Source: a virus
Taxonomy: Duplodnaviria; Caudoviricetes
Reading direction: 5' to 3' (one strand)
DNA: 64,000 bases
IMG/VR virus record: IMGVR_UViG_3300020577_007013
The notes beneath the pieces were generated by a model that was not told where the DNA came from, ran no database searches, and saw only the letters and a program-made list of their open reading frames with translations. Of the stretch, positions 940 to 32,975 are shown in pieces. Positions within the stretch are counted from its first letter, which is position 1; the number at the start of each line of letters is the position of its first letter. The translations under genes and the position numbers were made by a program.

Positions 940-1016
940 TGGTGTCTCCGGCAGGATTCCAACCTGCGACCTGTCGATTAGAAATCGAATGTTCTATGCA
1001 GCTGAACTACGGAGAC
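940..1016 (-). tRNA. tRNA-Arg(TCT), CCA encoded
   Basis: Reverse complement folds as GTCTCCG TA GTTC AGCTGCATA GAAC A TTCGA TTTCTAA TCGAC AGGTC GCAGG TTGGAAT CCTGC CGGAGAC A CCA; A20 Arg identity element present. Confidence 0.93.
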
Positions 1017-6084: not shown

Positions 6085-7098
6085 TTATAGTCTCTTTGTT
6101 CTTTTCTTCTTAAAACAATTTGCATTGTAAAAGTCTGTCATATTCTTTCTCATCCAAGCAGCAGGACTCTGTATTTCGTTATCTAAGACTTTCCTTAATT
6201 TAGGAATCCATCCTAGCTTAGAAAAGTCTATTCCAGAATTTAGAATCTTAGATTCCAGTCTCTTGATTTTTTCATACTTAAGTTTTTTATTCTCTTGTCT
6301 TTTATGTAGTTTTCTTCCTCTACAAGTTCCTAGTCTTTGTTTTTCTATGATCTCCTGAATATCATATTTAATTGACTTTTTTTCTTTCTCTTTTAGAAAA
6401 TTCAAGAACTTTTGAAATTCTTCATTGGGATTTTTATAAAAATTTACTCCAGCAATTCTGTAAATTATCCATCCGTCTGACTCTAACTCTAAGTCTCTTT
6501 TTTCATCATGAAGAATTTGTTTTTCCTTTAAATGCTGTTTTCCGTCCATCTCTAAGTCGATCTTAAATTCTAGAATAGCAAAGTCTAGAAAGTATCTCCC
6601 ACATCTGAATTGAAAGACATGATCTATTTTATTTTGAATAAGAAGAGACTCTAAGATTGATTCCAATCTAGACTTATTATTTATCATTTTCTTAGAATGA
6701 TACCAATTATTTCCTCTCCCTTCTCTATGAGCTTTTTTATGAGACTCTGAGAGTCTTCTTTTTGTCTCGTCACTTTTTGATAATTTTCTAGTAGGATTCT
6801 CTATCCAATTTTTTTTAAGTGACTCACTAAGCTTCTTTTTGATAAGGTCAGATTTCTCTTTTCCGTAAAATTCTTCCATAGAAAGTCCTTTTCTGGACTT
6901 AATCTGAATTCCGAGTCTTTCAAAATATTCTTTTTTTCTCCTTTTAGGAAATTTTCCTTTACAAGACTTTGAATGTATTGCCCTATTATGCTTTATCAGA
7001 AAATTACATTTCAGACATTTCCAATCTTCTGTGTAGAGATGTCTGTATTCGTCTTGTCTTTTTTCTCTTAGTTGTGTCCTTTTATTTCCAGATTGCAT
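6085..7098 (-). CDS. Free-standing homing-endonuclease-like protein (NUMOD3-like repeat plus DUF559/Vsr-like PD-(D/E)xK domain)
   Basis: SDETKRRLSESHKK; YFLDFAILEFKIDLEMDGKQH...DEKRDLELESDGWIIYRI. Confidence 0.8.
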   Translation of the reverse strand: MQSGNKRTQLREKRQDEYRHLYTEDWKCLKCNFLIKHNRAIHSKSCKGKFPKRRKKEYFERLGIQIKSRKGLSMEEFYGKEKSDLIKKKLSESLKKNWIENPTRKLSKSDETKRRLSESHKKAHREGRGNNWYHSKKMINNKSRLESILESLLIQNKIDHVFQFRCGRYFLDFAILEFKIDLEMDGKQHLKEKQILHDEKRDLELESDGWIIYRIAGVNFYKNPNEEFQKFLNFLKEKEKKSIKYDIQEIIEKQRLGTCRGRKLHKRQENKKLKYEKIKRLESKILNSGIDFSKLGWIPKLRKVLDNEIQSPAAWMRKNMTDFYNANCFKKKRTKRL

Positions 7099-7122
7099 TG
7101 TTTATTAAGTTATAGTAGTATA

Positions 7123-7160
7123 AAACGAGGCCCTAAGATATAGCTTTGTACCAGGGCCTC
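7123..7160 (-). terminator. Rho-independent terminator ending the ncRNA
   Basis: GAGGCCCT...AGGGCCTC followed by GTTTT on the - strand. Confidence 0.6.
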
Positions 7161-7605
7161 AACCATTTCCATGGTCATAGGCAATTAATGAGATAACTTT
7201 TCCATTTAACTGTAAGCTAATTTTTATTAGAGACGTCATAGCATTCGACTATTTCGGCCCTCATACAACAATGGGACTTATTGTATCAGGCGCCGAAATT
7301 GGGAGTTCAACCCAAACCTTCTCTTGATTTGTCTTACAGACTCGATTTATCTCTACCTACTATACTAAGATTAGGGTGAATAATCTGAGTTTCATAAAGT
7401 CCATCAACCATTTCTGATTGACGCGTTTACCTTTCGCCATCTCCACGTTCAGAATACCTTTTTCAGATACTCTCAGCGTGGAGACCTCTTTTGACAGAGG
7501 AAGGACTTTTTAATTCAGTCTTATTTTCAATCTTAGTCTGGGCGACGGTTCCTATGAACCGTCTCACCCTTTGCTCAACCTAGATAGCGAATCTAGTTGA
7601 GCTAA
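7123..7605 (-). ncRNA. Large structured ncRNA with two circularly permuted tRNA-like (Y-RNA-like) domains
   Basis: ~490 nt ORF-free region packed with stems; T-arm, loop-closed acceptor, D-arm order at 7229-7324 and 7396-7509. Confidence 0.75.
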
Positions 7606-7610
7606 TTTTC

Positions 7611-8339
7611 TCATCCGAAGATGAACTTCATTATGTCATTTCCAATTGTAGATCTTTCAACCTCAACTGAATTTGCTTCCTCTCTCGCAACCTTGACAGC
7701 TTTAGAAAGCTTGTCAATTTTATTTAAGAGGTCATTCTTTCTGTCCTGAGTTGTCGTACCAGAAAAACGAATTGTTGTGAACTGACCGACCACTTCGTCT
7801 CTGTAGAGAATTTCTGATTGTTCAGGATGTTTGTCAGTAGCTTTAGCTTTTGTAAAACTGAAAGGTTGCTTTAACGTTCTGTTTGTGCTTCTACCTTCAG
7901 TTTTGAAAAGACCACCGTCTCCTAAAGTCCATTTTTCAGCAGGATCTTGAACTGGGAATTTGTCGACAAAGGTCTTCAGATCTACCAACTGCTTCTCTAA
8001 GAAGATCAGATGAGTTGCAGGAACATCAGAAGCAATTACAGTACCGTCTACTGTAATGTTAGCTTTCGCTTTACAGTTTCCGTTATCGAGAGTTGCGACA
8101 ATGTTGATCAGATCGACAGTAGAGTCGTATGCATCTTTAATAGATTGCTCTACTGTGTACTGAACGATCTTAGACTCCGGTGGAAGAGTATCTTTCGAGT
8201 CGTCTGCTAAGGGCTTGTAAGTCTTATTGAATCCTTCGAAAAGATCTGATTTTTGGAGTTTGTGATACACCTCAGAGATCTTCGAAGTTCTTCTTGATTT
8301 TTCACCATTTGCAATGGCGATTACTTGTGTTAATTTCAT
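7611..8339 (-). CDS. Conserved uncharacterised coiled-coil protein, putative ncRNA partner
   Basis: KLTQVIA, TYKP...LPPE, VPATHLIFLEKQL, ATDKHPEQ, FSG and AREEAN match a widespread bacterial/phage hypothetical family (recognised from memory). Confidence 0.8.
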   Translation of the reverse strand: MKLTQVIAIANGEKSRRTSKISEVYHKLQKSDLFEGFNKTYKPLADDSKDTLPPESKIVQYTVEQSIKDAYDSTVDLINIVATLDNGNCKAKANITVDGTVIASDVPATHLIFLEKQLVDLKTFVDKFPVQDPAEKWTLGDGGLFKTEGRSTNRTLKQPFSFTKAKATDKHPEQSEILYRDEVVGQFTTIRFSGTTTQDRKNDLLNKIDKLSKAVKVAREEANSVEVERSTIGNDIMKFIFG

Positions 8340-8361: not shown

Positions 8362-8574
8362 TCAGATCTCTGAAACTATTTGTCGAATTTTCTCTTTATA
8401 GAGAACTTCGGTGCTCGTCTCTTCCTTAGTTCTGACTATGGTGACTTTAGGCCATTCATAAGAGAGGCTTCCTCTATTGATACTAGAGGCTCCGATTCTG
8501 ACTATTTTCAATACGTTTTCAGGCATTATCTGAAAGTTAGATTTAATGAATTCTTCTGAGAACATATTCCTCAT
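8362..8574 (-). CDS. Mini-protein: copy of MCP residues ~75-114 plus C-terminal tag
   Basis: 22/40 identical to the MCP at 41577-43067. Confidence 0.85.
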   Translation of the reverse strand: MRNMFSEEFIKSNFQIMPENVLKIVRIGASSINRGSLSYEWPKVTIVRTKEETSTEVLYKEKIRQIVSEI

Positions 8575-8711
8575 TTCTCGTCGACTATCTTTTTGATTTT
8601 CTCTTTAAAATCATTTTCTACTTTGCTAGGTTTTTTCTCTTTAGGATCCAGACTATCATTGTCATTAGCCTTAATCCATTTCATAAAGTCTACGAATGTG
8701 TTAAGCCTCAT
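8571..8711 (-). CDS. 46-aa mini-protein with C-terminal tag (not in ORF track)
   Basis: MRLNTFVDFMKWIKANDNDSLDPKEKKPSKVENDFKEKIKKIVDEK; overlaps both neighbours. Confidence 0.75.
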   Translation of the reverse strand: MRLNTFVDFMKWIKANDNDSLDPKEKKPSKVENDFKEKIKKIVDEK

Positions 8712-8949
8712 TCAAAATTTCTTTGACCTTTTCTTTATAAGTGGATTCTACTGCAGAGACCGAAACCGGAGAAGAATAGACTCTGTCAATGAAGTATATC
8801 GCATCGTCAGGAGCTACCATCGGCCATTCAGTAATCAATGACTTAGCTACTAAATGAGTAGAATAGATTCTACCATTTTTATTTGATTTCTTCAAGAATC
8901 TCCTTGAGTTTGTCACAGTAAACTTTCTTATGAGCTTCTCTTGTGTCAT
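8701..8949 (-). CDS. Mini-protein: copy of MCP residues 108-129 plus tag (likely TTG start at 8895)
   Basis: TEWPMVAPDDAIYFIDRVYSSP is 16/22 identical to the MCP; AAGGAG precedes the TTG at 8895. Confidence 0.85.
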   Translation of the reverse strand: MTQEKLIRKFTVTNSRRFLKKSNKNGRIYSTHLVAKSLITEWPMVAPDDAIYFIDRVYSSPVSVSAVESTYKEKVKEILNEA

Positions 8950-9082
8950 TTGTAAGAGTGACTTCAGCCATAGTAGTATAAGAGTATCCTATACTATTGA
9001 CTTTTCCCATCTTGACACCTCCGTAGAACATTTCAAATTGTCCTGAACTCAGGTCTAGAAATCCGTGAGAACTACTTGACAA
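8879..9082 (-). CDS. Mini-protein: copy of MCP residues 279-293 plus tag
   Basis: NSIGYSYTTMAEVTL vs NILGYSYTRMAEMML (10/15). Confidence 0.8.
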   Translation of the reverse strand: MSSSSHGFLDLSSGQFEMFYGGVKMGKVNSIGYSYTTMAEVTLTNDTREAHKKVYCDKLKEILEEIK

Positions 9083-9284
9083 TGTCTTCTACCTTCTTTA
9101 CATATTCTTTTTCAAGTTCGGTTTTTTCTTTGATCTCACCTTGAACCCATTCCATAGTATATAGCTCCATGGCTTTCTGAACATGTGGATTATTGAAATA
9201 TAAATATTGGCTCTCTAAAAGTTCAGCGGCTTTTCTAGCTTTACTGTCATCTAGGAAATATTTCTTGATCTTGTCAATCCACAT
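9072..9284 (-). CDS. Mini-protein: copy of MCP residues 55-73 plus tag
   Basis: SKARKAAELLESQYLYFNN vs SRARNTALALENQERYLKN (9/19). Confidence 0.75.
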   Translation of the reverse strand: MWIDKIKKYFLDDSKARKAAELLESQYLYFNNPHVQKAMELYTMEWVQGEIKEKTELEKEYVKKVEDIVK

Positions 9285-9522
9285 CTTCGATAATTTTCTC
9301 TATTTCATCCTTGTAGTTAGTTTTCATTTTTGGATCTAACTTAACTCTTGGTTGTGGATATTGTCTCATGAATCCTGTGCAATCTATCCAGTCATCGAAG
9401 ATAAGTTGCATCTCAGATCTAGTGACTCCACCAAAGTCCATGCTATTATTGATCGAGACTATTCCACCGATCTTTCGACCATTCTGATCGAACACTCCTC
9501 CATCTCTGAGTTCAATTATCAT
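9274..9522 (-). CDS. Mini-protein with C-terminal tag
   Basis: 82 aa; ends NYKDEIEKIIEDVD. Confidence 0.75.
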   Translation of the reverse strand: MIIELRDGGVFDQNGRKIGGIVSINNSMDFGGVTRSEMQLIFDDWIDCTGFMRQYPQPRVKLDPKMKTNYKDEIEKIIEDVD

Positions 9523-9685
9523 CTAACATGTCCAAAAGCTTTTGCTTCTGTTCTTCTTCTTGAAGTTTTCTATTGAGTCGCTTTAGATTTTTGACTTCAT
9601 CCATTTGATGAATCAGCTCATTGACCTTTTCTAAATAGTCGGAGTCGCCTTCATTGTCAGACTTTGAGAATTTACTTGTCCTCAT
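9512..9685 (-). CDS. 57-aa mini-protein with tag (not in ORF track)
   Basis: MRTSKFSKSDNEGDSDYLEKVNELIHQMDEVKNLKRLNRKLQEEEQKQKLLDMLDDN; overlaps both neighbours. Confidence 0.7.
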   Translation of the reverse strand: MRTSKFSKSDNEGDSDYLEKVNELIHQMDEVKNLKRLNRKLQEEEQKQKLLDMLDDN

Positions 9686-10163
9686 AGGTCTCTTCTGTGT
9701 CGATTTTTAGTTCAGTCATTCCACTAGGCTTTCCATCTAACATCATTGTTGGAGGACTTATAAAAGGTAGCTGAGTTATTGGAAGATAAGGTGCATGAAT
9801 GTAGCCTTCAGTTAATTCAGAAAGTTCCATGACTTCAGGCTCTTTCTTTTTATTCTTGAAATTTGACATAAGAGCTTTGACATCCAGCTCTCCGTCTTTA
9901 TTGAAAATTTCTTTCTTTTTGTATTCTCTCTTAAAGAGATCTTTGAATTTTTCCCAAAGAGACTTTTTACGTGGAGAGTAATGCTTAAGTTTTCCGTACA
10001 TTCTGAAGAAGTCATCAGTCATTAATTCTTCATGAGTCTTCTCTTTTCTTTTCCAGAGTTTTTTCTGGAGTTTTTTCCAAAAAGACTTAGGCTTAGGTTC
10101 TACATACTGAAGACCAGGTTCTCCTAAATCTATGTAAGCTTTTATTTTCGAAATTTCAGACAC
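9672..10163 (-). CDS. Array protein with two amphipathic repeats and a gp23-type GY.HAPY.P motif
   Basis: KSFWKKLQKKLW and KSLWEKFKDLF; EGYIHAPYLPI. Confidence 0.75.
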   Translation of the reverse strand: MSEISKIKAYIDLGEPGLQYVEPKPKSFWKKLQKKLWKRKEKTHEELMTDDFFRMYGKLKHYSPRKKSLWEKFKDLFKREYKKKEIFNKDGELDVKALMSNFKNKKKEPEVMELSELTEGYIHAPYLPITQLPFISPPTMMLDGKPSGMTELKIDTEETYEDK

Positions 10164-10396
10164 TAAAAAAGATCCTTGATTTTTTGCTTGTACGAAGTCA
10201 ACAATTCAGTTGGATTATAATAGAGAGGCATTGATAGATTTTTAAGCCACTCAATTACTCTCTTGTCTCTTTCTCTTTGTCTAAGCTTATGTTCTTCAGC
10301 TATAGCATTTACGAGCATAAGCTCTATGTCTCCTATCTTAGAGAATGGACTTGAGTCTACCAACATAGTCATCCTTAACTTTACTTTTTCTTTCAT
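10163..10396 (-). CDS. Mini-protein: copy of MCP residues ~298-320 plus tag
   Basis: IGDIELMLVNAIAEEHKLR vs LGNVEDMLVRAVGDEHALR (10/19). Confidence 0.8.
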   Translation of the reverse strand: MKEKVKLRMTMLVDSSPFSKIGDIELMLVNAIAEEHKLRQRERDKRVIEWLKNLSMPLYYNPTELLTSYKQKIKDLF

Positions 10397-10529
10397 CTTC
10401 TACTACAGTTACAAAGCCATAGCCGATAGGGTCTTCATCAAAGAAATTCTTAGGAACTCCGGTAACTTTTGCTACCAGGTCGTAGAGTTCTCTGATCTTC
10501 TCATCTGTAAGTGATTCGTCTTTATTCAA
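10338..10529 (-). CDS. Mini-protein: portal-like segment plus tag (TTG start overlapping the VWA stop)
   Basis: LYDLVAKVTGVPKNFFD vs portal LLNALVVSTGLPRNLLD. Confidence 0.7.
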   Translation of the reverse strand: MNKDESLTDEKIRELYDLVAKVTGVPKNFFDEDPIGYGFVTVVEDERKSKVKDDYVGRLKSIL

Positions 10530-11935
10530 ATGATTGACCTGAAAGCTAACTTCGCTTGTGAAAGATCTTCGATATTTCCTGTATCCATGAAAGACAAAGA
10601 CTCTGAAAGTTTGTTGCAATTTTCAATGTTACCCATATCTTCCAAGAATACGAAGTGGAATTTCTTTCCTTGTACTCTATGCTTAATAAGTTCATTCATG
10701 GTAGGGATTCTGATATCCTCTGTACCGTCTGTTACCATAATGATGTCCGACTTATCAAGACCGTCTACTTCATTCTTGTCAATGTCCTTCACAGCATAAG
10801 TGAGAGCCATGTCCATGTCAGTACCACCATCTGGATGTGTATTGAGAATGAAGTCAAGAAATGTATTCCAATGAGCTCTTCCTTTTAGAACGAACAAGCT
10901 TCCTAAACGTCCTTCAAACCATCTGCAATAGAATGTCGTTCCGTCTTTCATGGCTTTCTTCGCTAAAGCGATTGCCACTGCTTTAATGAACATTTGACGA
11001 TTGTTTTCATGAGTGGATCCTGAACGATCTAACAAAGCATAGAGACATTGTTTAAGATCTTTTCTCTCTTTGTATTTCATGACTCTCAATGATTTGGTCA
11101 TGATCTTACGGTCAAGAACATCATCAATTGTAACTTCGAACTTGACTGCCTTGCTTACATCGTTCATTTTCTTCATCTTAGAATAGTGAAGATTGGAAGA
11201 AATGTTTTCAGTCTCGTAGAGTTTTCCTCTCTTCGATTGACTGAAGAATGATGTCTCCAGATTTTTAGCGATCTCAAAAATGGAAGCATTTTCATTAGAG
11301 AGAAGTTGCTGAACCATTTGCTTGATCTTGAGCTTCTTGTCCAAGATCTCTTTATAGGTCCTATCAAAGTGACCCATATCTTTTGTTGAACCTGTATTTT
11401 CGGTTTTACCGTCATCTTCAGGAACATCGTATGAGTAGTTCATTATGTGCTCGAATAAGAATCCGAATGAAGAGAAGATCTTGGATACATTTTGTCCAGT
11501 TGATCCTCCACCCATACCACCGTTAGGCTGACGACCAGCTTTTTGATTTTCAATGATAGCTGAGAAGATCTGACAAACGAAGTCAAATTTCTCCTCTAAA
11601 GATAGAGACTTGGATTCAATGTACTGCTCAACAATATCAGACTCAGCAAAATGAATAATGTCCATTTTGAGTTTGAACATCTGAGCTTCAGTGTGCTCAA
11701 TATTATTGACTTCACCTTTTTTGTATCTGTCGATCGCATTTCTTGAAATCTCCAGATCTGATGACATATACTTGAAACAATTTGTCTTCCCTTGAGCTAT
11801 GAGACAAAGTGTATCTTCAAGAACCTCTTTTGGAAGTGCTGAAAGAGAAGGGTACTTAGCGTACCCCTTGTTCACCATGTCGGTATAGAATGTAGGGAGA
11901 TCTATCTTTATGAATCTCATTTTACTTCTTATCAT
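10526..11935 (-). CDS. VWA-domain protein (ViaA/CoxE-like)
   Basis: MIDAS LLDRSGST, GGTD, MVTDG. Confidence 0.88.
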   Translation of the reverse strand: MIRSKMRFIKIDLPTFYTDMVNKGYAKYPSLSALPKEVLEDTLCLIAQGKTNCFKYMSSDLEISRNAIDRYKKGEVNNIEHTEAQMFKLKMDIIHFAESDIVEQYIESKSLSLEEKFDFVCQIFSAIIENQKAGRQPNGGMGGGSTGQNVSKIFSSFGFLFEHIMNYSYDVPEDDGKTENTGSTKDMGHFDRTYKEILDKKLKIKQMVQQLLSNENASIFEIAKNLETSFFSQSKRGKLYETENISSNLHYSKMKKMNDVSKAVKFEVTIDDVLDRKIMTKSLRVMKYKERKDLKQCLYALLDRSGSTHENNRQMFIKAVAIALAKKAMKDGTTFYCRWFEGRLGSLFVLKGRAHWNTFLDFILNTHPDGGTDMDMALTYAVKDIDKNEVDGLDKSDIIMVTDGTEDIRIPTMNELIKHRVQGKKFHFVFLEDMGNIENCNKLSESLSFMDTGNIEDLSQAKLAFRSII

Positions 11936-13094
11936 CCATTGGGAAGATCTCGTCTTCTGAAAGTCCAGATTGTGAGACCTTATCTTCGATCAATTTCTTA
12001 AGATCTTTTGCTTTCTCAAGAACTGATTTTTGGCAATTAGCTTGAGTCCATTCAGAGATTTTATCTTTGATATGTGAAGCGAGAGCTGCAAGCATTCTTG
12101 TTCTCTCAAGCTTATCATCATATTTGAGAATCTTAGTGTGAAGAGCTTTCTCAAATTTCATGAGCTCCATTCCCATTGCCATTGATTTTTCTGATTTGTC
12201 AAAGACAGCATCGAATTTGTCTGAGTTCTTGATGTCTCCACCATTCACAAGTGCATATTTAATGCTCTTGAGATTCTCAACTTCAATTGTCTCTTGACCT
12301 TTGAGGAATGCATCAGCTTTAGCGACAAGCAACATTTTATTTTTCTTTCTCGGACTGATACCGATACTTGTCTGCTGTGTGTACTCATCAAGAATTGCAT
12401 CGAACATGATGAGAAGCATATCAGAGAATTGAGGCTTGTATTTCTCAAATTCTTCGTGAAGAATCTTCAGATCATGGAAAGCAAATTTCGGATATTCTTC
12501 GTCAGAGATTCCTCTTAAGAAGTTGGAGAACATTTTGATTCTGCTTTCTTGTTTTACCAAGTCAGCAACTTCAGATGTGAAGAGAATACGATCATAAACA
12601 GCTCGAAGTTCTTTCTCCTCCTCTCTCTCTTGATTCGTTGTCATGATAGCTGTGAGTAGCTTTGCTGGAATTGTTCTGCTCTGTCTCGTAGATGATCTCT
12701 CGTTCAAGATCTCATTTGCAGAAACGAGAAGCTCTTCAGAAGCATTAAAGAATTCGTCCAATCTCGCAAAGTCTGTTGTGAGAAGTGAACCTTCAATGTT
12801 ATGAACGATGTTACCTTTCTTGAATTCCTCAATTGACTGAGGACCCATGATGTATTGGTCGTCCATGAATCTTGTGAACTGTTGTTCAAAGACTGTAGCT
12901 CCTGTAAAGCCTTTAAGAATCTTCTGACTTAGAAGTGTCTTCGCTGTACCTGGAAGTCCTTTTAGAAGCACATGCTCCTTAATGAGAATTGCCAATTTTA
13001 TTTGGTTTGTCTCATACTCTCTTTCAGAGAAAAAGTCCTCCATCTTTTTGAAATAATCTTGATAGTCTTGTTTAAGTTTTTTTACTTCCTTCAC
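11922..13094 (-). CDS. MoxR-family AAA+ ATPase (RavA-like)
   Basis: EHVLLKGLPGTAKT, LDEFFNA, ILNER, AVYDRI, ISPR. Confidence 0.9.
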   Translation of the reverse strand: MKEVKKLKQDYQDYFKKMEDFFSEREYETNQIKLAILIKEHVLLKGLPGTAKTLLSQKILKGFTGATVFEQQFTRFMDDQYIMGPQSIEEFKKGNIVHNIEGSLLTTDFARLDEFFNASEELLVSANEILNERSSTRQSRTIPAKLLTAIMTTNQEREEEKELRAVYDRILFTSEVADLVKQESRIKMFSNFLRGISDEEYPKFAFHDLKILHEEFEKYKPQFSDMLLIMFDAILDEYTQQTSIGISPRKKNKMLLVAKADAFLKGQETIEVENLKSIKYALVNGGDIKNSDKFDAVFDKSEKSMAMGMELMKFEKALHTKILKYDDKLERTRMLAALASHIKDKISEWTQANCQKSVLEKAKDLKKLIEDKVSQSGLSEDEIFPMDDKK

Positions 13095-27067: not shown

Positions 27068-28921
27068 TTACTTTATTGATAGCCATTCTTTTCTATCATC
27101 AGCTCTTTTCTTATTGAAAGCGAGATCCACCATTTCTGAGCAATTTTTGTCAGGAACAAATTGTACGAGATGATTCGTTTCCATATTCTTAAAATAGATA
27201 TCGAAGTCTTCTGGAGTCGATGTTCCCAAACCTTTATAGTGCTTGATCGTGAATTTCAGATCTTGATTTTCTTTATTCCATTTTTGATAATCCTTCTCTG
27301 TAAAGAAACAGAGTGTCTCATCTTTGAGAAAGACTTTCACATAAGGAGTTACAAATCTGTACATGATTCCTAAGTCAAAGAGTTCAGGCCAGAAAGTATA
27401 GAACATATTTATGAGCTGTCCAGTTATCGAGAATCCGTCAAGGTCATTGTCGGTAAGAATTATAATCTTCCCATATCGAATTTGACTGACAGACTCAATT
27501 TTATCTCCGACTTGAAGTCCGATAATTGACATGAGATTTTTGAATTCTTCATTCTCTTTTAGGTCTGCAACTGAAGCTCCTCTAACATTGATCGGTTTTC
27601 CTCTCAACGGAAAGACGGCCATTGTTTTAGGATCTCTCACATCTTTCGGATTTCCTGCTGCTGAGTCTCCTTCAACCAAGAAGAGCATACATTCAGCTCT
27701 ATTTTCTGAAGTAGCGTCGCTAAGTTTTACAATCTTCTTGAGATTTTTCTTATCGACTTCCTTACCCATCTTACGAAGTTCTTTTTGAGCGGCTGCAGCT
27801 TCCTTAGCTGCTATCCAATCTAAGATTTCCTGGATGATTTCACTTTTTATGACCTTTTTAATAAATTTTTCAGAAACAGAATATTCAGATCCGAATGAAC
27901 TCTTCTCGGTTATTAAGTATTCCTTAGTCTGAGAAGCATATTTTGGATTTATGATAGTGCAATCTAAGAAAAGTAGAAAGTGATTTTTTATGTCAGAAGG
28001 TTTGACTTCAGTCTTATGTTTTTTCTCTATATAGTCTCTGACTCCGCTAATAATTTGATTCATCACATAGTCAATGTGTGTACCATCTTTAGTTATTGCT
28101 GAATTTACGAAGCTGACATTCTCAAAGCCGTTTTCAGAAACAGTAACCCCTATTTTCCAATTACCCTCTTCCTCATAGATGCATTCTGATTTATATAAAG
28201 AGACATAGTCTTCAAAATCTTTGAGTTTTATTGTGTCTCCATTTAGCTTTACTTTTAAATGGGTGTTCGTTCCAGCTATGTCCACCACTCTTTTGTACAA
28301 TACAAGCCTTGTATCCTCATCAAGCTTTGTTTTGAGTCTGTCATAATCAGGAAGGTAGCTTATTTTAGTATAATTTTTGTCTGAATCTGTAATCTTCGGA
28401 GTCGACTTCTCTGAAAGATTATTAGAGAATGTCTGTCTAAATTTTTTCTCTCCATCACATGTTTCTACTATGAATTCTTTTGAAAAAACATTTGTAAGAG
28501 TTGCTCCTAAACCATGAGTTCCTACAGTTGTTCGTTGTTCGTCATCATTAAAGTTTGATCCGGCTTTTGTCTCACTAAAAATCATTTCAGGAACGTATTG
28601 ATTATGTTCTTTATGAATGACGACAGGAATTCCACCGTTATCCCAAACAGAAATCCAACCGTCGTCACCAATTTCCACCTTAATTTCATCCAGATTTTTA
28701 TTTCTCTTAGACTCATCAACTGAGTTGGAGATAATCTCATCGAATAATTTTAAAAAAGCTGGAGAGTATGTCACATTCTTTTTTTCCATCTTATTCAAGG
28801 ACGGATTATAAATCCAAGTCAAGTCAGTGTGAGCTTCAGTATTTCCAATATACATTCCAGATCTTTTTAAAATATGATCTATATCGGAAAGCTTTTGATA
28901 TTTTTGCTCAATTGTTTTCAT
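27068..28921 (-). CDS. Type II topoisomerase ATPase/TOPRIM subunit (T4 gp39+60/GyrB-like)
   Basis: HILKRSGMYIG, EIISNSVDE, EGDSA, PLRGK, TDNDLDG, YKGLGT. Confidence 0.95.
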   Translation of the reverse strand: MKTIEQKYQKLSDIDHILKRSGMYIGNTEAHTDLTWIYNPSLNKMEKKNVTYSPAFLKLFDEIISNSVDESKRNKNLDEIKVEIGDDGWISVWDNGGIPVVIHKEHNQYVPEMIFSETKAGSNFNDDEQRTTVGTHGLGATLTNVFSKEFIVETCDGEKKFRQTFSNNLSEKSTPKITDSDKNYTKISYLPDYDRLKTKLDEDTRLVLYKRVVDIAGTNTHLKVKLNGDTIKLKDFEDYVSLYKSECIYEEEGNWKIGVTVSENGFENVSFVNSAITKDGTHIDYVMNQIISGVRDYIEKKHKTEVKPSDIKNHFLLFLDCTIINPKYASQTKEYLITEKSSFGSEYSVSEKFIKKVIKSEIIQEILDWIAAKEAAAAQKELRKMGKEVDKKNLKKIVKLSDATSENRAECMLFLVEGDSAAGNPKDVRDPKTMAVFPLRGKPINVRGASVADLKENEEFKNLMSIIGLQVGDKIESVSQIRYGKIIILTDNDLDGFSITGQLINMFYTFWPELFDLGIMYRFVTPYVKVFLKDETLCFFTEKDYQKWNKENQDLKFTIKHYKGLGTSTPEDFDIYFKNMETNHLVQFVPDKNCSEMVDLAFNKKRADDRKEWLSIK

Positions 28922-30149
28922 TGTTCTTGATACCGTCTTCTATTTGAAAATATTTTCTCAGATATTGAGTATAATATTCAAAGTAGAACCCCTCGTAGTT
29001 TTCTTTTGTAATCTCCATAATTCCATTTTTCGAAAAGAATTTGATTATCTTCAAGCAATTCTTATCGAAAGCGTCTGTTGAGCTTATCCTAAGAACTTTA
29101 TATCCGTTCTTTTTAGCTATTTTAAATTTCTCTTTTTCTGAAGGATTTGGATTTTTTGGATCATGCCAGTAGATCCCGTCATATTCGATAATTAATTTTT
29201 TCTCTTCTATTGAGAAATCGTATCTATAAAAATCTTTTTCCTTTCCACCGAAGAGTCTTAGTTCTTTTAATCCCATTGCTCCGAAGTTAATTGTATAGTT
29301 TTCCTTAAGACATTCATAGAGAAATATAAAATATTTAAGAGACTCTTTGGAGGCTTGTCCTTTCCAAAGTCTCATAAGAGACTTATAGTTTCTGATTAGC
29401 TCATCATAATTTTTCGAGACTTCAAAAGCTTTTGTAAGACAATAAAGCCTAAAGACTGTGTAATGTTTTCTTCTTTTGGATCTTTTTCCTATATAAAGAG
29501 AGACTCCCTTTTCGTACCCATACTTGTTAATTTGAAACTTTAGACCTATGGTCGATTGCCTTTCTCTTAATTTTTCTTTCGCTTCTTCTTGAGAGAATCC
29601 TTTTTTAAGCCAATATCCTATTTGAGTTGCAGTCCTATCTTTCCTAGTATTATCGACTCTCTTAGAGAGCTCTGACTGAAATTGAGATCTTAATTTAATT
29701 GAGTCTTCTTCTGAGTGTCCTCTAACTATCCAGTATTCTACATTCAATTTTTTACAAGACCTAGCTTTGAATAAGGCTTCCTCTTGTGTGTAATTGATCC
29801 CTGTCAAAGGATTTATTTTAGCTAGCCAATTGTCTTCTCCGAAAGGAGAATTACGTAAGTAAGAGTCACAATGTTCTTTGGATTTTTTAGAAGCTTGTTC
29901 CTCACCCCAACCTCTAAGTGTCCAATACTTTATTGAATTTTGACTTCTAGATTTTCCAGCTGTACCGATTTTTTCCCTAATCAATTTTGTTAATTGACCG
30001 AATCGAAGTCTAGGATTTGCTTTACAGCAAGTTAAAGAGAAGTCCAAGAGTGACTCTCTCAATTTAGGTTCTAAGTTTTTTATTTTGTAGTCTAAGTATT
30101 CTAGAAGTTCTCTTTCTGAACGGTCTATGACTTTTCCTTTTAAATTCAT
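28908..30149 (-). CDS. Free-standing endonuclease-like protein (YW..RG repeats plus PD-(D/E)xK domain)
   Basis: Repeated YWxxRG/KG units; YDF...IIEYDGIYWH...GYKVLRI. Confidence 0.75.
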   Translation of the reverse strand: MNLKGKVIDRSERELLEYLDYKIKNLEPKLRESLLDFSLTCCKANPRLRFGQLTKLIREKIGTAGKSRSQNSIKYWTLRGWGEEQASKKSKEHCDSYLRNSPFGEDNWLAKINPLTGINYTQEEALFKARSCKKLNVEYWIVRGHSEEDSIKLRSQFQSELSKRVDNTRKDRTATQIGYWLKKGFSQEEAKEKLRERQSTIGLKFQINKYGYEKGVSLYIGKRSKRRKHYTVFRLYCLTKAFEVSKNYDELIRNYKSLMRLWKGQASKESLKYFIFLYECLKENYTINFGAMGLKELRLFGGKEKDFYRYDFSIEEKKLIIEYDGIYWHDPKNPNPSEKEKFKIAKKNGYKVLRISSTDAFDKNCLKIIKFFSKNGIMEITKENYEGFYFEYYTQYLRKYFQIEDGIKNNENN

Positions 30150-30779: not shown

Positions 30780-32975
30780 TTAGATATCGACTTTCACTTG
30801 ACGAAGATTGAATTCGACAAAGATGTCCTTATTTCCAACTTTTGATTTAAGAACACAATCTTCTCTCGAAGTGAATTCCTTAAACCATTTCTTAGCCATA
30901 ATGACTGAGAATTTTTGACGTTGGAGATCTGAACGAAGTTTGTAAAGTTCAGTCTTGGTTTCTTTGAGTTGCTCTTCCAACCAAGCTTCTTTTACTTTCT
31001 TCGATTTCTCTTTATCGAACTTTTTCTTGTAACCAGCATAGAGTTCTGCCATGATAAGCTCTCTTTCTGTTGGAGCTTTCTTGGCTTCCTCAAGCTTCTT
31101 GACAAGATCTTTGACTGTTGGTTTAGAGAATCCTTTTACAGCAACTTTAAACTCAGTAGCCATGTAGTAATCTGTCGGAGCTGCTGCTTTAGACTCAGGA
31201 GAGTAGAGTCCTTTCTTGATTCCATGTTCTTCAAGAAACTTGACTTGATCTGCTGTCAATGATTCAGACTTTTCTTCTTTGTCTTTCAGACCGTTCAGAA
31301 GATATTTGAATAGTGACTGCTTTTGTTCAAGAGCTGTCTCCTTGTAGACCATATCTGCAATAGGCTTGGCAGAGTCTATCCCTTCTGACATTTTACGATT
31401 TGAAACCGGAATCGATTTAAGTCGCAGAATGAAGATATCTTTCTTCAGTTGAGGACTCTTGAATTTCTCCAGCAACTCTTTAGGAGCCAATTGCTTGAGT
31501 TTCTTCTCAGTCTCTTTACTGACTGACACATAGAGTTCATCTATGTTGGGATATCCGTCCTTGATAAGAGAATAGTTCCGATACACTTTTGTCGGATATT
31601 CTTTTTGGAATCCGAGTTTCTTGAAACCTTCTTTTAATGTGACTGTTCCCGTCAGTTCTGCTCTTACAGACAGATTGAGTTTGGAATCATTCCAAGCCAA
31701 TGAGTTGAAGTAGCATAATTGATTCTGATCTGCCTTGAACTCTGGATATTTCTTATCAATCTCAGTTCCTTTTGAGATCTTGTTGTAAGTCCAACCGTCA
31801 TGACGAGGATAGAAACCAGCGTCATCGTCATTGATAAGGATATCGACCAAGTCAAGGAGACAGAATACATCGTCTTTCGGAACGTAATTCTGAACTTGAC
31901 CTTCTTTGAGACGTTCTGCCGGTGAGAAGAGAGCTTCTCTGATCTCATTCTCTACTCGACCATACTCATCATTTGTTCTTGCATTGTTGAGCTGGTCAAT
32001 GAAATATTTGTCTCCGAGATATCCCAGAACATCGATTGCCTTATCAGCTTTTGTTCTCATTGAGAGAATGTTCGCTGCAGCATAGAGACCTTTGATGAGG
32101 TACTCTTTCTTATTTGTGGATGAGCCTTTTGAAAGGTCACCTACAGAATCGACTTCCTTTGATCCGGCTGGTTTTTTCTCAGTGAGATAGAACAGAACAT
32201 TCTTGTTCTTTTTTGATGGGTTGAAGGTAACTGAGCTACCGTCTACATCATAAGCAATGATGTTCTTTCCTGAGATTGAGAATGGATAGAGAGCTGTCTT
32301 GTCAATCTCTACCTGAATTCTTCCATTTGAGTCTCTCGATGTCTCAACGAATTGAGTGAGAGTCTCATAAGAATTGTTCACATCTCCTAAATGGAGAAAT
32401 GAACCACCAATAGCAGACGACATTTGAGTGAGCAGCTCTCTGTTGTAATAGTTTCCTGATCCAACAAAGGCTGAATAGTAAAGCTTACCTTTCAGCTCGC
32501 CTAAAGCTGTAAAGATAGCCTTTATCTCTTTGTTGTAGTCCATCACACATGGCTGACCGTCAGTAAAGAAGTACAATACGAAATTGTCTTCTTTATAAGA
32601 AGGATCTTTCACCAATGTGTTGATCTTCTGGAGAATTTCTGAGAAGCAGGTTGTTCCCAAAATTCTTTTGTTCTGATCGAGAATGGTTGTGAGAGTCGCT
32701 TTGTTTTTGTCATTGACTTCAAATGCTTTCAACATGAAGTCGCAGTAGCCTTCTCCTGAAAACCATCCGATGGAATTCTTTTCATTTTCTCTTAATGAAA
32801 GAGAAAACTTTTTTACGTCTTCCACTACTGAGTTGATGTAGCCAGACATTGAGCCTGATCTGTCAATCACAGTAATGATGTGAAGTTGTTTGTCGAGTTG
32901 TTTCTCCTGTTCCTTATTTAATTCGACGTCTTTAGAGACGAGATACAGGTCGTCCCTGATCTTTATGTGTTCCAT
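30780..32975 (-). CDS. Large VWA-domain protein
   Basis: VIDRSGSM, GTTCF, FFTDG. Confidence 0.85.
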   Translation of the reverse strand: MEHIKIRDDLYLVSKDVELNKEQEKQLDKQLHIITVIDRSGSMSGYINSVVEDVKKFSLSLRENEKNSIGWFSGEGYCDFMLKAFEVNDKNKATLTTILDQNKRILGTTCFSEILQKINTLVKDPSYKEDNFVLYFFTDGQPCVMDYNKEIKAIFTALGELKGKLYYSAFVGSGNYYNRELLTQMSSAIGGSFLHLGDVNNSYETLTQFVETSRDSNGRIQVEIDKTALYPFSISGKNIIAYDVDGSSVTFNPSKKNKNVLFYLTEKKPAGSKEVDSVGDLSKGSSTNKKEYLIKGLYAAANILSMRTKADKAIDVLGYLGDKYFIDQLNNARTNDEYGRVENEIREALFSPAERLKEGQVQNYVPKDDVFCLLDLVDILINDDDAGFYPRHDGWTYNKISKGTEIDKKYPEFKADQNQLCYFNSLAWNDSKLNLSVRAELTGTVTLKEGFKKLGFQKEYPTKVYRNYSLIKDGYPNIDELYVSVSKETEKKLKQLAPKELLEKFKSPQLKKDIFILRLKSIPVSNRKMSEGIDSAKPIADMVYKETALEQKQSLFKYLLNGLKDKEEKSESLTADQVKFLEEHGIKKGLYSPESKAAAPTDYYMATEFKVAVKGFSKPTVKDLVKKLEEAKKAPTERELIMAELYAGYKKKFDKEKSKKVKEAWLEEQLKETKTELYKLRSDLQRQKFSVIMAKKWFKEFTSREDCVLKSKVGNKDIFVEFNLRQVKVDI

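What the first reader, a model, noticed from the sequence alone, without database searches (positions are those of the whole stretch)
7123..7605. ~490-nt ncRNA with two circularly permuted tRNA-mimic domains
Seen on the - strand. Domain 2 (7229-7324): AGAGA, AGGT, T-arm TTGGG-TTGAACT-CCCAA, acceptor TTTCGGC [hairpin] GCCGAAA, D-arm TA-GTC-GAATGCTAT-GAC-G, TCTCT. Domain 1 (7396-7509): CCTCT/AGAGG arm, TCTCCACG [hairpin] CGTGGAGA, D-arm GCG-AAAGGTAAA-CGC, closed by AAAGTCC/GGACTTT. Long-range pairs 7564-7570/7373-7379 and 7529-7537/7364-7372 cross each other (pseudoknot or switch). Established: the T-arm, closed acceptor, D-arm order is that of bacterial YrlA Y RNAs, which partner Ro60. No Ro60 gene is in this window. 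Inference: the RNA is co-transcribed with, and bound by, the upstream 242-aa protein, forming an uncharacterised RNP that may decoy tRNA-targeting defences.
Basis: partly seen in the sequence, partly recalled or inferred. Interest (0 to 1): 0.85.

Follow-up and report, generated by a model that had tools for sequence, protein, structure and literature searches.

The report
Twin tRNA-mimic RNA beside DUF7873
The flagged stretch is a real folded RNA of about 480 bases with two back-to-front, anticodon-less tRNA look-alikes. It occurs together with one uncharacterised protein (DUF7873) in hundreds of bacterial species and many phages, and I found the pair in no RNA catalogue or paper, so it is probably an undescribed RNA-protein particle.

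Summary
Observation confirmed. The 512-nt gap folds far better than shuffles (z -9.2).

It belongs to a large RNA family. A homologous core of about 300 nt follows the DUF7873 gene in 89 of 92 phage and metagenome loci and in 77 of 80 bacterial chromosomes. In all five checked exceptions the RNA lies elsewhere in the same genome or record.

Both heads have a T-arm, a 7-bp acceptor stem closed by a loop, and a D-arm. These pair in 95-100% of cells, with many compensatory changes. The elbow pairs 19:56 and 18:55 and the Levitt pair 15:48 also covary, so the heads fold as tRNA L-shapes.

No Rfam 15 family matches. The YrlA model finds a true YrlA beside Ro60 in a Streptomyces genome but not this RNA. 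Five complete carrier phages lack Ro60. No other neighbouring gene is conserved.

Best reading: a self-contained DUF7873-RNA particle, built like Ro60/Y RNA but distinct from it. Binding, transcription and function are untested. The "decoy for tRNA-targeting defences" idea is unsupported.

This scan has reported the same family on at least 20 other genomes.

The parts
7611..8339 (-). DUF7873 protein gene (242 aa), the conserved partner of the RNA
   Evidence: Pfam PF25283, E 1e-82, full length. AF2 model pLDDT 90.8 with no convincing known fold.
7120..7605 (-). The whole ncRNA, about 480 nt. The 5' end is not mapped; the 3' end is at a terminator-like hairpin.
   Evidence: Family nhmmer profile matches 7105-7605, E 7e-52, the only copy in the window. 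Fold z -9.2. No Rfam family.
7573..7602 (-). 5' hairpin with a T-loop-like loop. It is a canonical T-arm in relatives L008, L015 and L020. This clade-specific extension looks like a relic of a third tRNA 3' half.
7564..7570 (-). 5' strand of long-range helix P1, which pairs with 7373-7379
   Evidence: Perfect 7 bp in the window. Different but complementary sequences in L061, L076 and L020. Cognate duplex -9.5 against -7.6 kcal/mol for non-cognate.
7511..7538 (-). Tract A: hexamer-periodic (Y-U-N-A-R-N) run 5' of unit 1. Positions 7529-7537 can pair with 7364-7372.
   Evidence: Consensus. Duplex of tract A with tract B: cognate -18.8 against non-cognate -15.0 kcal/mol.
7396..7509 (-). Unit 1, a permuted tRNA-like head. 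Closing stem 7503-7509/7396-7402; T-arm 7485-7500; acceptor 7477-7484/7440-7447 closed by hairpin 7448-7476; D-arm 7423-7437; extra hairpin 7404-7421.
   Evidence: Family alignment A4: 98% of cells paired against 35-52% when slid; 14 of 15 pairs compensatory. U8:A14 46/46; Levitt pair AU 41, GC 3. This D-arm type is found only in tRNA-Leu genes.
7362..7390 (-). Tract B: hexamer-periodic linker between the heads. It holds the conserved box that forms the 3' strand of P1 (7373-7379).
7190..7353 (-). Unit 2 on its long stem. Outer helix 7347-7353/7190-7196; conserved box 7341-7347; middle helix 7333-7339/7210-7216; anticodon-like stem 7320-7324/7229-7233; T-arm 7299-7315; acceptor 7292-7298/7252-7258 with loop 7259-7291; D-arm 7235-7249; tract C 7218-7228; conserved box 7202-7209.
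   Evidence: CM R1 100 bits, E 8.5e-22. A3: T-arm 99.5%, acceptor 99.7%, D-arm 88.7%, middle helix 83-92% paired; 0 of 500 shuffles reach this. Anticodon-like stem perfect in 26 of 42 against 6% for non-cognate. Outer helix covaries. Tertiary covariation.
7120..7176 (-). 3' tail: small hairpin 7161-7176, then terminator-like hairpin 7127-7160 followed by a U-run at 7120-7126
   Evidence: MFE fold; sequence. The stem changes on both sides in L008 and L010. The consensus scan missed it because its loop is longer than 8 nt.

Best explanation
Window 7120-7605 (- strand) is a member of a widespread, uncatalogued class of structured non-coding RNA. The RNA carries two tRNA-shaped heads. Each head is a circularly permuted tRNA body: T-arm, then a 7-bp acceptor stem closed by a loop, then a D-arm, with no anticodon loop. 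Each head sits on a long irregular stem with conserved internal boxes and hexamer-periodic tracts.

Its functional partner is the DUF7873 protein encoded just upstream. I propose that DUF7873 binds the stems and tracts, as Ro60 binds the Y RNA stem. The two heads would then offer tRNA-like surfaces to enzymes that recognise the tRNA elbow and acceptor, such as RNase P, the CCA-adding enzyme and T- or D-loop modifiers. The particle would recruit, or be handled by, tRNA-processing machinery.

Shown: the RNA structure, its tRNA-like tertiary fold, and the genome-level partnership with DUF7873 without Ro60.
Inferred: physical binding, which part is bound, and the cellular role.
For: Structure:
- Fold z -9.2.
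- In a sequence-only nhmmer alignment all six head helices are 93-100% canonical with 3-6 pair types. A blind all-against-all scan returned only these helices plus one long-range helix.
- MAFFT and RNAalifold: 21 of 22 pairs compensatory.
- The count of structure pairs: 86% and 98% paired against 35-52% when slid; no more than 1 of 500 shuffles reached any measure.

tRNA fold:
- 19:56 is GC 39 times and CG 3 times (the window's clade).
- 18:55 is GU 32 and CG 5.
- The Levitt pair 15:48 is AU 36 and GC 6.
- U8:A14 is invariant.

Partnership:
- The RNA lies right after the gene in 89 of 92 phage and metagenome loci and 77 of 80 bacterial loci.
- In the reverse direction, all 11 true RNA hits of an RNA-only pattern scan have DUF7873 upstream.
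- For the five 'orphan' genes that I checked, the RNA is elsewhere in the same genome or record.
- No other protein is conserved nearby in 49 diverse loci.

Not Ro60:
- No TROVE domain in the window's large ORFs or in five complete carrier phages.
- A Streptomyces genome holds a separate Ro60 plus YrlA locus.
Against: - No transcript, binding or processing data exist for any member.
- The DUF7873 model shows no recognisable RNA-binding fold.
- Gene and RNA can be unlinked, so the protein might act on the RNA, or on the same target, rather than form a stable particle with it.
- One earlier check in this scan (e1-2704762) reported that a crude word-pattern test linked only about 18% of DUF7873 genes to the RNA, although a later fold test gave 20 of 21.
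- My loci were chosen as the best protein matches, so very divergent DUF7873 genes are under-sampled.
Confidence: 0.6

Rival explanations
1. The RNA works without stably binding DUF7873. It could be an RNA-only scaffold or multimer, like the phage-borne ROOL and GOLLD RNAs. Alternatively DUF7873 could be an enzyme that processes or modifies it, or both could act on a shared target.
For: The family is often near tRNA genes in phages, as ROOL and GOLLD are: 40 of 92 loci have a tRNA gene within a few kb. DUF7873 has invariant polar residues (N88, T168, Q174, R219, E220, N223, and nearly invariant H171 and D181) that could be catalytic. Gene and RNA are unlinked in some genomes.
Against: Strict co-occurrence with a single protein, and with nothing else, is what a dedicated partner predicts. 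There is no Rfam match to ROOL or GOLLD.
Confidence: 0.18
2. The RNA is matured at its two 7-bp acceptor stems by RNase P, 3' trimming and CCA addition, as in M. smegmatis YrlA or two-piece tmRNA. The open ends would then take part in aminoacylation or translation-linked chemistry, with DUF7873 as the adaptor.
For: Acceptor stems are exactly 7 bp throughout the family. The 3' strand of unit 1 is followed by N-CCA in 14 of 46 sequences. The D-arm of unit 1 is of tRNA-Leu type. M. smegmatis YrlA with a 7-bp stem is cut by RNase P and receives CCA (PMC4201824).
Against: CCA is missing in two thirds of members and in this window. Acceptor loops can be as short as about 7 nt. No tag reading frame and no conserved G3:U70. 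ARAGORN and Rfam see no tmRNA here.
Confidence: 0.1
3. The region is only a cis-acting 3' UTR of the DUF7873 mRNA, acting as a stabiliser or autoregulatory element.
For: It starts within a few bases of the stop codon, with no terminator in between. Hexamer-like motifs are slightly enriched upstream of DUF7873 start codons: 1.0 per 60 nt against 0.4-0.6. That comparison is confounded by base composition.
Against: The RNA persists as a separate locus when it is 1.8 kb, 8.5 kb or whole contigs away from the gene. Size, tertiary covariation and conservation equal to the protein's go beyond what UTR elements need.
Confidence: 0.07
4. It is a decayed row of ordinary tRNA genes or pseudogenes, or permuted tRNA genes that mature into working tRNAs.
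For: Head sequences are tRNA-derived. One GenBank record even annotates a 'tRNA-Stop(tta)' inside the homologous RNA.
Against: Conventional pairing of the 5' strand of unit 1 with the 3' strand of unit 2 is 60.6%, the same as shifted controls (50-59%), against 95-97% for the permuted pairing. There is no anticodon loop. ARAGORN and the Rfam tRNA model are silent here. Covariation shows selection on the permuted fold.
Confidence: 0.02

Closest known systems
YrlA-class bacterial and phage Y RNAs with Ro60/Rsr (Rfam RF02553; Chen et al. 2014, PMC4201824; Wang et al. 2018, bioRxiv 10.1101/312249)
   Same: A circularly permuted tRNA body (T stem-loop, closed acceptor stem-loop, D stem-loop, no anticodon loop) on a stem formed by flanking sequence. 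The same tertiary pairs are kept, including a covarying Levitt pair. The RNA is encoded next to its protein and is found in both bacteria and phages.
   Different: Two heads instead of one, and 300-500 nt instead of about 100 nt. The Rfam YrlA model does not match it, although it finds a true YrlA in the same Streptomyces genome. The partner is DUF7873, not Ro60/TROVE. Acceptor stems are uniformly 7 bp. There are hexamer-periodic tracts.
Mycobacterium smegmatis YrlA (PMC4201824)
   Same: [quoted passage not shown] About a third of unit 1 copies here carry N-CCA after the 3' strand.
   Different: Processing is untested here. This window has no CCA.
Two-piece tmRNA from permuted ssrA genes, with SmpB (from my own knowledge: Keiler et al. 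2000)
   Same: The gene order is T-arm, acceptor 3' strand, intervening loop, acceptor 5' strand. A small dedicated protein partner.
   Different: No tag reading frame, no Ala identity pair, a full D-arm, two heads. Not detected by ARAGORN or the Rfam tmRNA model. Phage Phendrix has a normal tmRNA as well.
Permuted tRNA genes of Cyanidioschyzon merolae (Soma et al. 2007, as cited in 10.1101/312249)
   Same: The 3' half lies before the 5' half, and the acceptor end is initially closed.
   Different: Those mature into real tRNAs through circular intermediates and keep anticodon loops. Here none is present.
ROOL and GOLLD large phage-associated RNAs (PMC12286853)
   Same: Large ornate RNAs of phages and bacteria, often near tRNA genes, with unknown function.
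   Different: No sequence or structure match in Rfam. Those are RNA-only assemblies with no fixed protein partner.

Membership tests
YrlA / bacterial Y RNA (RF02553) | Matches the Rfam YrlA covariance model | tested here: not met
   No YrlA hit at E <= 10 on window 6900-7800. None at gathering score on 15 homologous loci. None at E <= 0.01 on L190-L192. Positive control: the model finds a YrlA (59 bits, E 1.5e-11) about 900 nt from a TROVE gene in Streptomyces genome G001.
YrlA / bacterial Y RNA (RF02553) | Partnered with, and encoded near, Ro60 (TROVE domain) | tested here: not met
   No TROVE domain in the 22 complete window ORFs of 330 aa or more. 0 of 5 complete carrier phage genomes have it. 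In bacteria it is absent or far from the locus. The rest of this 254-kb phage could not be searched.
YrlA / bacterial Y RNA (RF02553) | Permuted tRNA-like module: T-arm, closed acceptor stem, D-arm, tRNA tertiary pairs, no anticodon loop | tested here: met
   present twice per RNA.
YrlA / bacterial Y RNA (RF02553) | Ro60-binding stem with the conserved GNCGAA(N)G motif (PMC4201824) | tested here: inconclusive
   By eye only. The conserved stem box here (consensus AAUCGA) does not fit that motif. No formal test was made.
Functional tRNA | Anticodon loop, and acceptor stem formed by the two ends of one cloverleaf | tested here: not met
   ARAGORN and Rfam tRNA model silent. Conventional acceptor pairing is at control level, 60.6%.
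tmRNA (one-piece or permuted) | Detected by ARAGORN or Rfam tmRNA models; tag reading frame | tested here: not met
   Tract A has stop codons every second codon in the only periodic frame.
ROOL / GOLLD / other Rfam large RNAs | Match to the family covariance model | tested here: not met
Pfam DUF7873 (PF25283), for the protein | Full-length match above the gathering score | tested here: met
   278 bits against a cut-off of 27; residues 2-241.
DUF7873-associated twin tRNA-mimic RNA (family defined in this scan) | Two permuted tRNA heads plus conserved stem boxes, in a genome that encodes DUF7873 | tested here: met
   nhmmer E 7e-52; CM R1 100 bits; DUF7873 gene adjacent.

The most novel reading that the evidence does not exclude
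The particle is a second, tmRNA-like or Y-RNA-like machine of its own kind. RNase P and the CCA-adding enzyme open the two 7-bp acceptor stems. The tRNA-Leu-like head becomes chargeable. DUF7873 acts as the SmpB- or Ro60-like adaptor that delivers the twin heads to the ribosome or to an RNA-surveillance nuclease. That would be a new translation- or RNA-quality-control system shared by complex bacteria and large phages.
Probability: 0.1. Interest if true: 0.95.

Novelty: new variant of a known kind. Interest (0 to 1): 0.8.

Why it matters
Very few classes of large, widespread bacterial ncRNA remain undiscovered, and fewer still come with a dedicated protein.

This one occurs in at least 579 bacterial species, including Streptomyces, Nocardia, myxobacteria, Ktedonobacteria, Planctomycetes and Herpetosiphon. 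It also occurs in hundreds of large phages of unrelated hosts. Its structure is unusually well supported, down to covariation at tertiary contacts.

It shows that the design of a permuted tRNA on a stem is not tied to Ro60. That makes an open question testable: what are tRNA-like heads on non-coding RNAs for? Cultivable carriers are at hand, such as Streptomyces strains and the Gordonia, Arthrobacter, Klebsiella and Ralstonia phages.

It also corrects annotation. The region is left blank, or in one GenBank record called a 'tRNA-Stop'.

Tried and rejected
- Rfam 15 on the window (gathering score, and E <= 10 on the region) and on 15 homologous loci: nothing at this place.
- blastn of the RNA against 50,697 phage records: no match, because it is too diverged.
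- The search for related loci with the single protein: nothing. The alignment query worked.
- DUF7873 function: PHROGs, NCBIfam and PADLOC gave nothing.
  - Foldseek against PDB and BFVD, and VIA-align wide, gave no convincing match. The best was 3kdq, a protein of unknown function, Z 8.8 at rmsd 7.9.
  - A PDB profile search gave only E >= 0.02. The ESM Atlas gave only unnamed clusters.
It never ran.
- A first all-against-all BLAST of neighbouring genes timed out. A smaller set worked.
- Pairing of tract A with tract C, and of tract B with tract C: no cognate advantage.
- The second crossing helix: no cognate advantage in the family.
- Hexamer motifs at the DUF7873 ribosome-binding site, a lead from earlier notes: only a weak enrichment, confounded by composition.
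- Papers: none holds 'DUF7873'. Four other full-text searches found no description of this RNA.
- The catalogue of about 10,000 viral structured-RNA candidates (PMC10690425) lists motifs of at most 151 nt. It names none like this in its text. Its supplementary tables were not checked.

Full report
**What is there**

The window is part of an uncultured T4-like phage of about 254 kb. The window encodes topoisomerase II subunits, a DnaB-like helicase, an NAD-dependent ligase and a T4-type portal.

On the - strand, a 242-aa gene (7611-8339) is a full-length member of Pfam DUF7873 (E 1e-82). A 512-nt stretch follows it, with no ORF of 40 aa or more on that strand, up to a DUF559/Vsr-like endonuclease gene at 6085-7098.

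The stretch folds at -178 kcal/mol against -118 +/- 6.5 for dinucleotide shuffles, z -9.2. It ends in a terminator-like hairpin and U-run at 7120-7160.

No Rfam 15 family matches, even at E <= 10. ARAGORN sees no tRNA or tmRNA here.

**It is a conserved RNA, not a local oddity**

Close relatives of the protein (63-71% identity) from metagenomes carry the same non-coding stretch. Mean column identity is 69%, with compensatory changes in the stems.

In seven isolated phages of Gordonia, Arthrobacter, Pseudanabaena, Ralstonia, Klebsiella, Rhizobium and Microcoleus, the DUF7873 gene is followed by 410-1160 nt with no annotated gene. The one annotation there is a 'tRNA-Stop' that ARAGORN placed inside the Klebsiella gap.

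An nhmmer profile was iterated on the 900 nt downstream of each gene. It converged on a homologous core of about 300 nt in 89 of 92 sequences.

IMG/VR holds at least 392 relatives of the protein. At least 579 bacterial species genomes encode it, among them Streptomyces, Streptosporangium, Nocardia, Sorangium, Herpetosiphon, Ktedonobacteria and Planctomycetes. In 77 of the 80 bacterial loci fetched, the RNA follows the gene.

**Structure**

The family consensus shows two units of the same design:
- a T-arm with a canonical T-loop;
- a 7-bp acceptor stem closed by a loop of very variable length;
- the two bases U8 and A9;
- a D-arm that keeps G18 and G19.

Covariation was measured three ways.

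1. On the sequence-only alignment, all six helices are 93-100% canonical with 3-6 pair types. A blind scan of every column pair returned only these helices and one further long-range helix.
2. On MAFFT alignments made by the tools, RNAalifold found compensatory changes at 21 of 22 pairs of unit 2 and its stem.
3. The count of structure pairs gave the following:

| Element | Cells paired |
|---|---|
| Unit 2 T-arm | 99.5% |
| Unit 2 acceptor stem | 99.7% |
| Unit 2 D-arm | 88.7% |
| Unit 2 middle helix | 83-92% |
| Unit 1, all helices | 98% |
| Controls with partners slid by 1-3 columns | 35-52% |

No more than 1 of 500 shuffles reached the observed value on any measure.

The 5-bp anticodon-like stem of unit 2 is perfect in 26 of 42 sequences and 4 of 5 in 14 more. 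For non-cognate partners it is perfect in 6%.

**The heads fold like tRNA**

Tertiary contacts covary:
- Pair 19:56 is G:C in 39 sequences and C:G in the 3 of this window's clade, which explains the odd D- and T-loops here.
- Pair 18:55 is G:U in 32 and C:G in 5.
- The Levitt pair 15:48 is A:U in 36 and G:C in 6 for unit 2, and 41 and 3 for unit 1.
- U8:A14 is invariant.

The D-arm type of unit 1 is found only in tRNA-Leu genes: 8 of 38 Leu against 0 of 207 other tRNA genes. N-CCA follows the acceptor 3' strand of unit 1 in 14 of 46 sequences. The RNA therefore looks derived from a run of tRNA genes.

It is not a run of tRNA genes now. The conventional acceptor pairing scores 60.6%, like shifted controls, against 95-97% for the permuted pairing.

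**The rest of the RNA**

Each head sits on an extended stem.

For unit 2 these are the middle and outer helices, which covary. They carry two conserved boxes at 7341-7347 and 7202-7209.

Unit 1 is flanked by hexamer-periodic tracts of the form Y-U-N-A-R-N. Tracts A and B pair better with each other within one RNA than between RNAs, -18.8 against -15.0 kcal/mol. A conserved box in tract B pairs with the 5' end of the RNA: 7564-7570 with 7373-7379 in the window, and different but complementary sequences in L061, L076 and L020.

Whether the two form a pseudoknot or are alternatives remains open.

This phage's clade adds a 5' extension, with a further T-arm-like hairpin, and a 3' tail.

**Partner**

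Among 49 diverse loci, DUF7873 is the only protein shared.

The link holds in the reverse direction too. A scan of 2.9 million viral contigs with an RNA-only pattern gave 13 hits. Eleven are true members, and all eleven have DUF7873 just upstream. The other two match neither the RNA profile nor the protein.

Six loci lack an RNA right after the gene. A covariance model of unit 2 (R1) and the nhmmer profile found the RNA elsewhere in the same genome or record for all five that I checked:
- 1.8 kb downstream in the Microcoleus phage;
- about 8.5 kb away in an IMG/VR phage (two of the five loci are from this one phage);
- on other contigs in Herpetosiphon and a Polyangiales genome, with no DUF7873 within 1.5 kb.

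The RNA is therefore a gene of its own that is kept together with DUF7873 at the level of the genome. That argues against a mere 3' UTR.

**Relation to Y RNAs**

The head design is that of YrlA. YrlA is described as a circularly permuted tRNA with a closed acceptor stem and no anticodon loop, bound by Ro60 on its stem (PMC4201824; bioRxiv 10.1101/312249). Membership fails on three counts:
- The Rfam YrlA model does not match this RNA. It does find a YrlA (59 bits) about 900 nt from a TROVE gene in a Streptomyces genome that carries the DUF7873 cassette on another contig.
- No TROVE domain is in the window's large ORFs or in five complete carrier phages.
- This RNA has two heads and is three to five times longer.

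**The protein**

The AlphaFold model is confident (pLDDT 90.8). It has long helical hairpins packed against a beta-sheet. It has no convincing relative in PDB, BFVD, PDB sequences, NCBIfam, PHROGs, PADLOC or the ESM Atlas.

**Reading**

The best-supported explanation is a self-contained two-part module, a DUF7873-RNA particle built on tRNA mimicry. Physical binding, co-transcription, processing and function are inferences.

The heads lack anticodon loops and mostly lack free CCA ends. The module is also chromosomal in hundreds of bacterial species.

In phages the module often lies among tRNA genes: 40 of 92 loci have at least one within a few kb, and 23 have three or more. One relative has T4-type RNA ligase 1 nearby. 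These fit a tRNA-related role but do not define it.

**Prior notes and prior art**

This scan has reported the same family on at least 20 other genomes, with the same conclusions. I reached mine from my own tests before reading those notes.

In the libraries I could search, no paper holds 'DUF7873' or describes this RNA. Burroughs and Aravind 2016 could not be read.

Noticed in passing
window 6085-7098 (-) and 28908-30149 (-); L008 1820-2758: A DUF559/MTES_1575 (Vsr-like) endonuclease gene lies just downstream of the RNA. In the 71%-identical relative L008 a DUF559/MTES_1575 gene lies upstream of DUF7873 instead. A second DUF559-domain ORF sits next to the topoisomerase genes. They look like mobile homing-type endonucleases.
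   Followed up: partly
L005 5007-5090 (Klebsiella phage vB_KpM_Centimanus, OZ240615.1): The GenBank record annotates a 'tRNA-Stop(tta)' inside the homologous RNA. It spans the 5' half of unit 1 to the 3' half of unit 2 and is most likely an ARAGORN mis-call, not a suppressor tRNA.
   Followed up: partly
L101, L103, L109, L110, L112, L114-L116 and others (Streptomyces), about 35-50 nt upstream of the DUF7873 start: A conserved box of about 15 nt (core AATCGTTCGATTC) precedes the gene in many Streptomyces loci. It may be a promoter or operator.
   Followed up: no
L196 3585-3685 (-) = G001:C23 about 126084-126184: A YrlA-type Y RNA (Rfam 59 bits, below the gathering score of 69) lies about 900 nt from a TROVE-domain gene in a Streptomyces genome that also has the DUF7873 cassette. 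The two systems coexist.
   Followed up: yes
L132 and L133, first 70 nt after the DUF7873 stop; L138, 100-420 nt after it: Where the RNA is not adjacent, the downstream DNA holds short tandem repeats. In Herpetosiphon these are units of about 7 nt. In the Polyangiales genome they are units of about 50-110 nt that share a GGGTTGAAC core.
   Followed up: no
L010 3730-5006 and 5373-6449: In the 63%-identical relative the non-coding gap after DUF7873 is 1.28 kb, so there is extra sequence beyond the RNA. A T4-type RNA ligase 1 gene lies just beyond it.
   Followed up: no
window 8362-13094 (-): A MoxR-type AAA+ ATPase (11922-13094) and a 469-aa gene with no Pfam hit are followed by a row of overlapping mini-genes directly upstream of DUF7873. 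Earlier notes of this scan treat these separately. No link to the RNA module was seen in other loci.
   Followed up: no
window 940-1016 (-): tRNA-Arg(tct), the only tRNA gene in the window, lies about 6 kb downstream of the RNA.
   Followed up: no
window 30780-32975 (-): A 731-aa protein with an N-terminal vWA domain. It is not Ro60, as it has no TROVE domain.
   Followed up: partly
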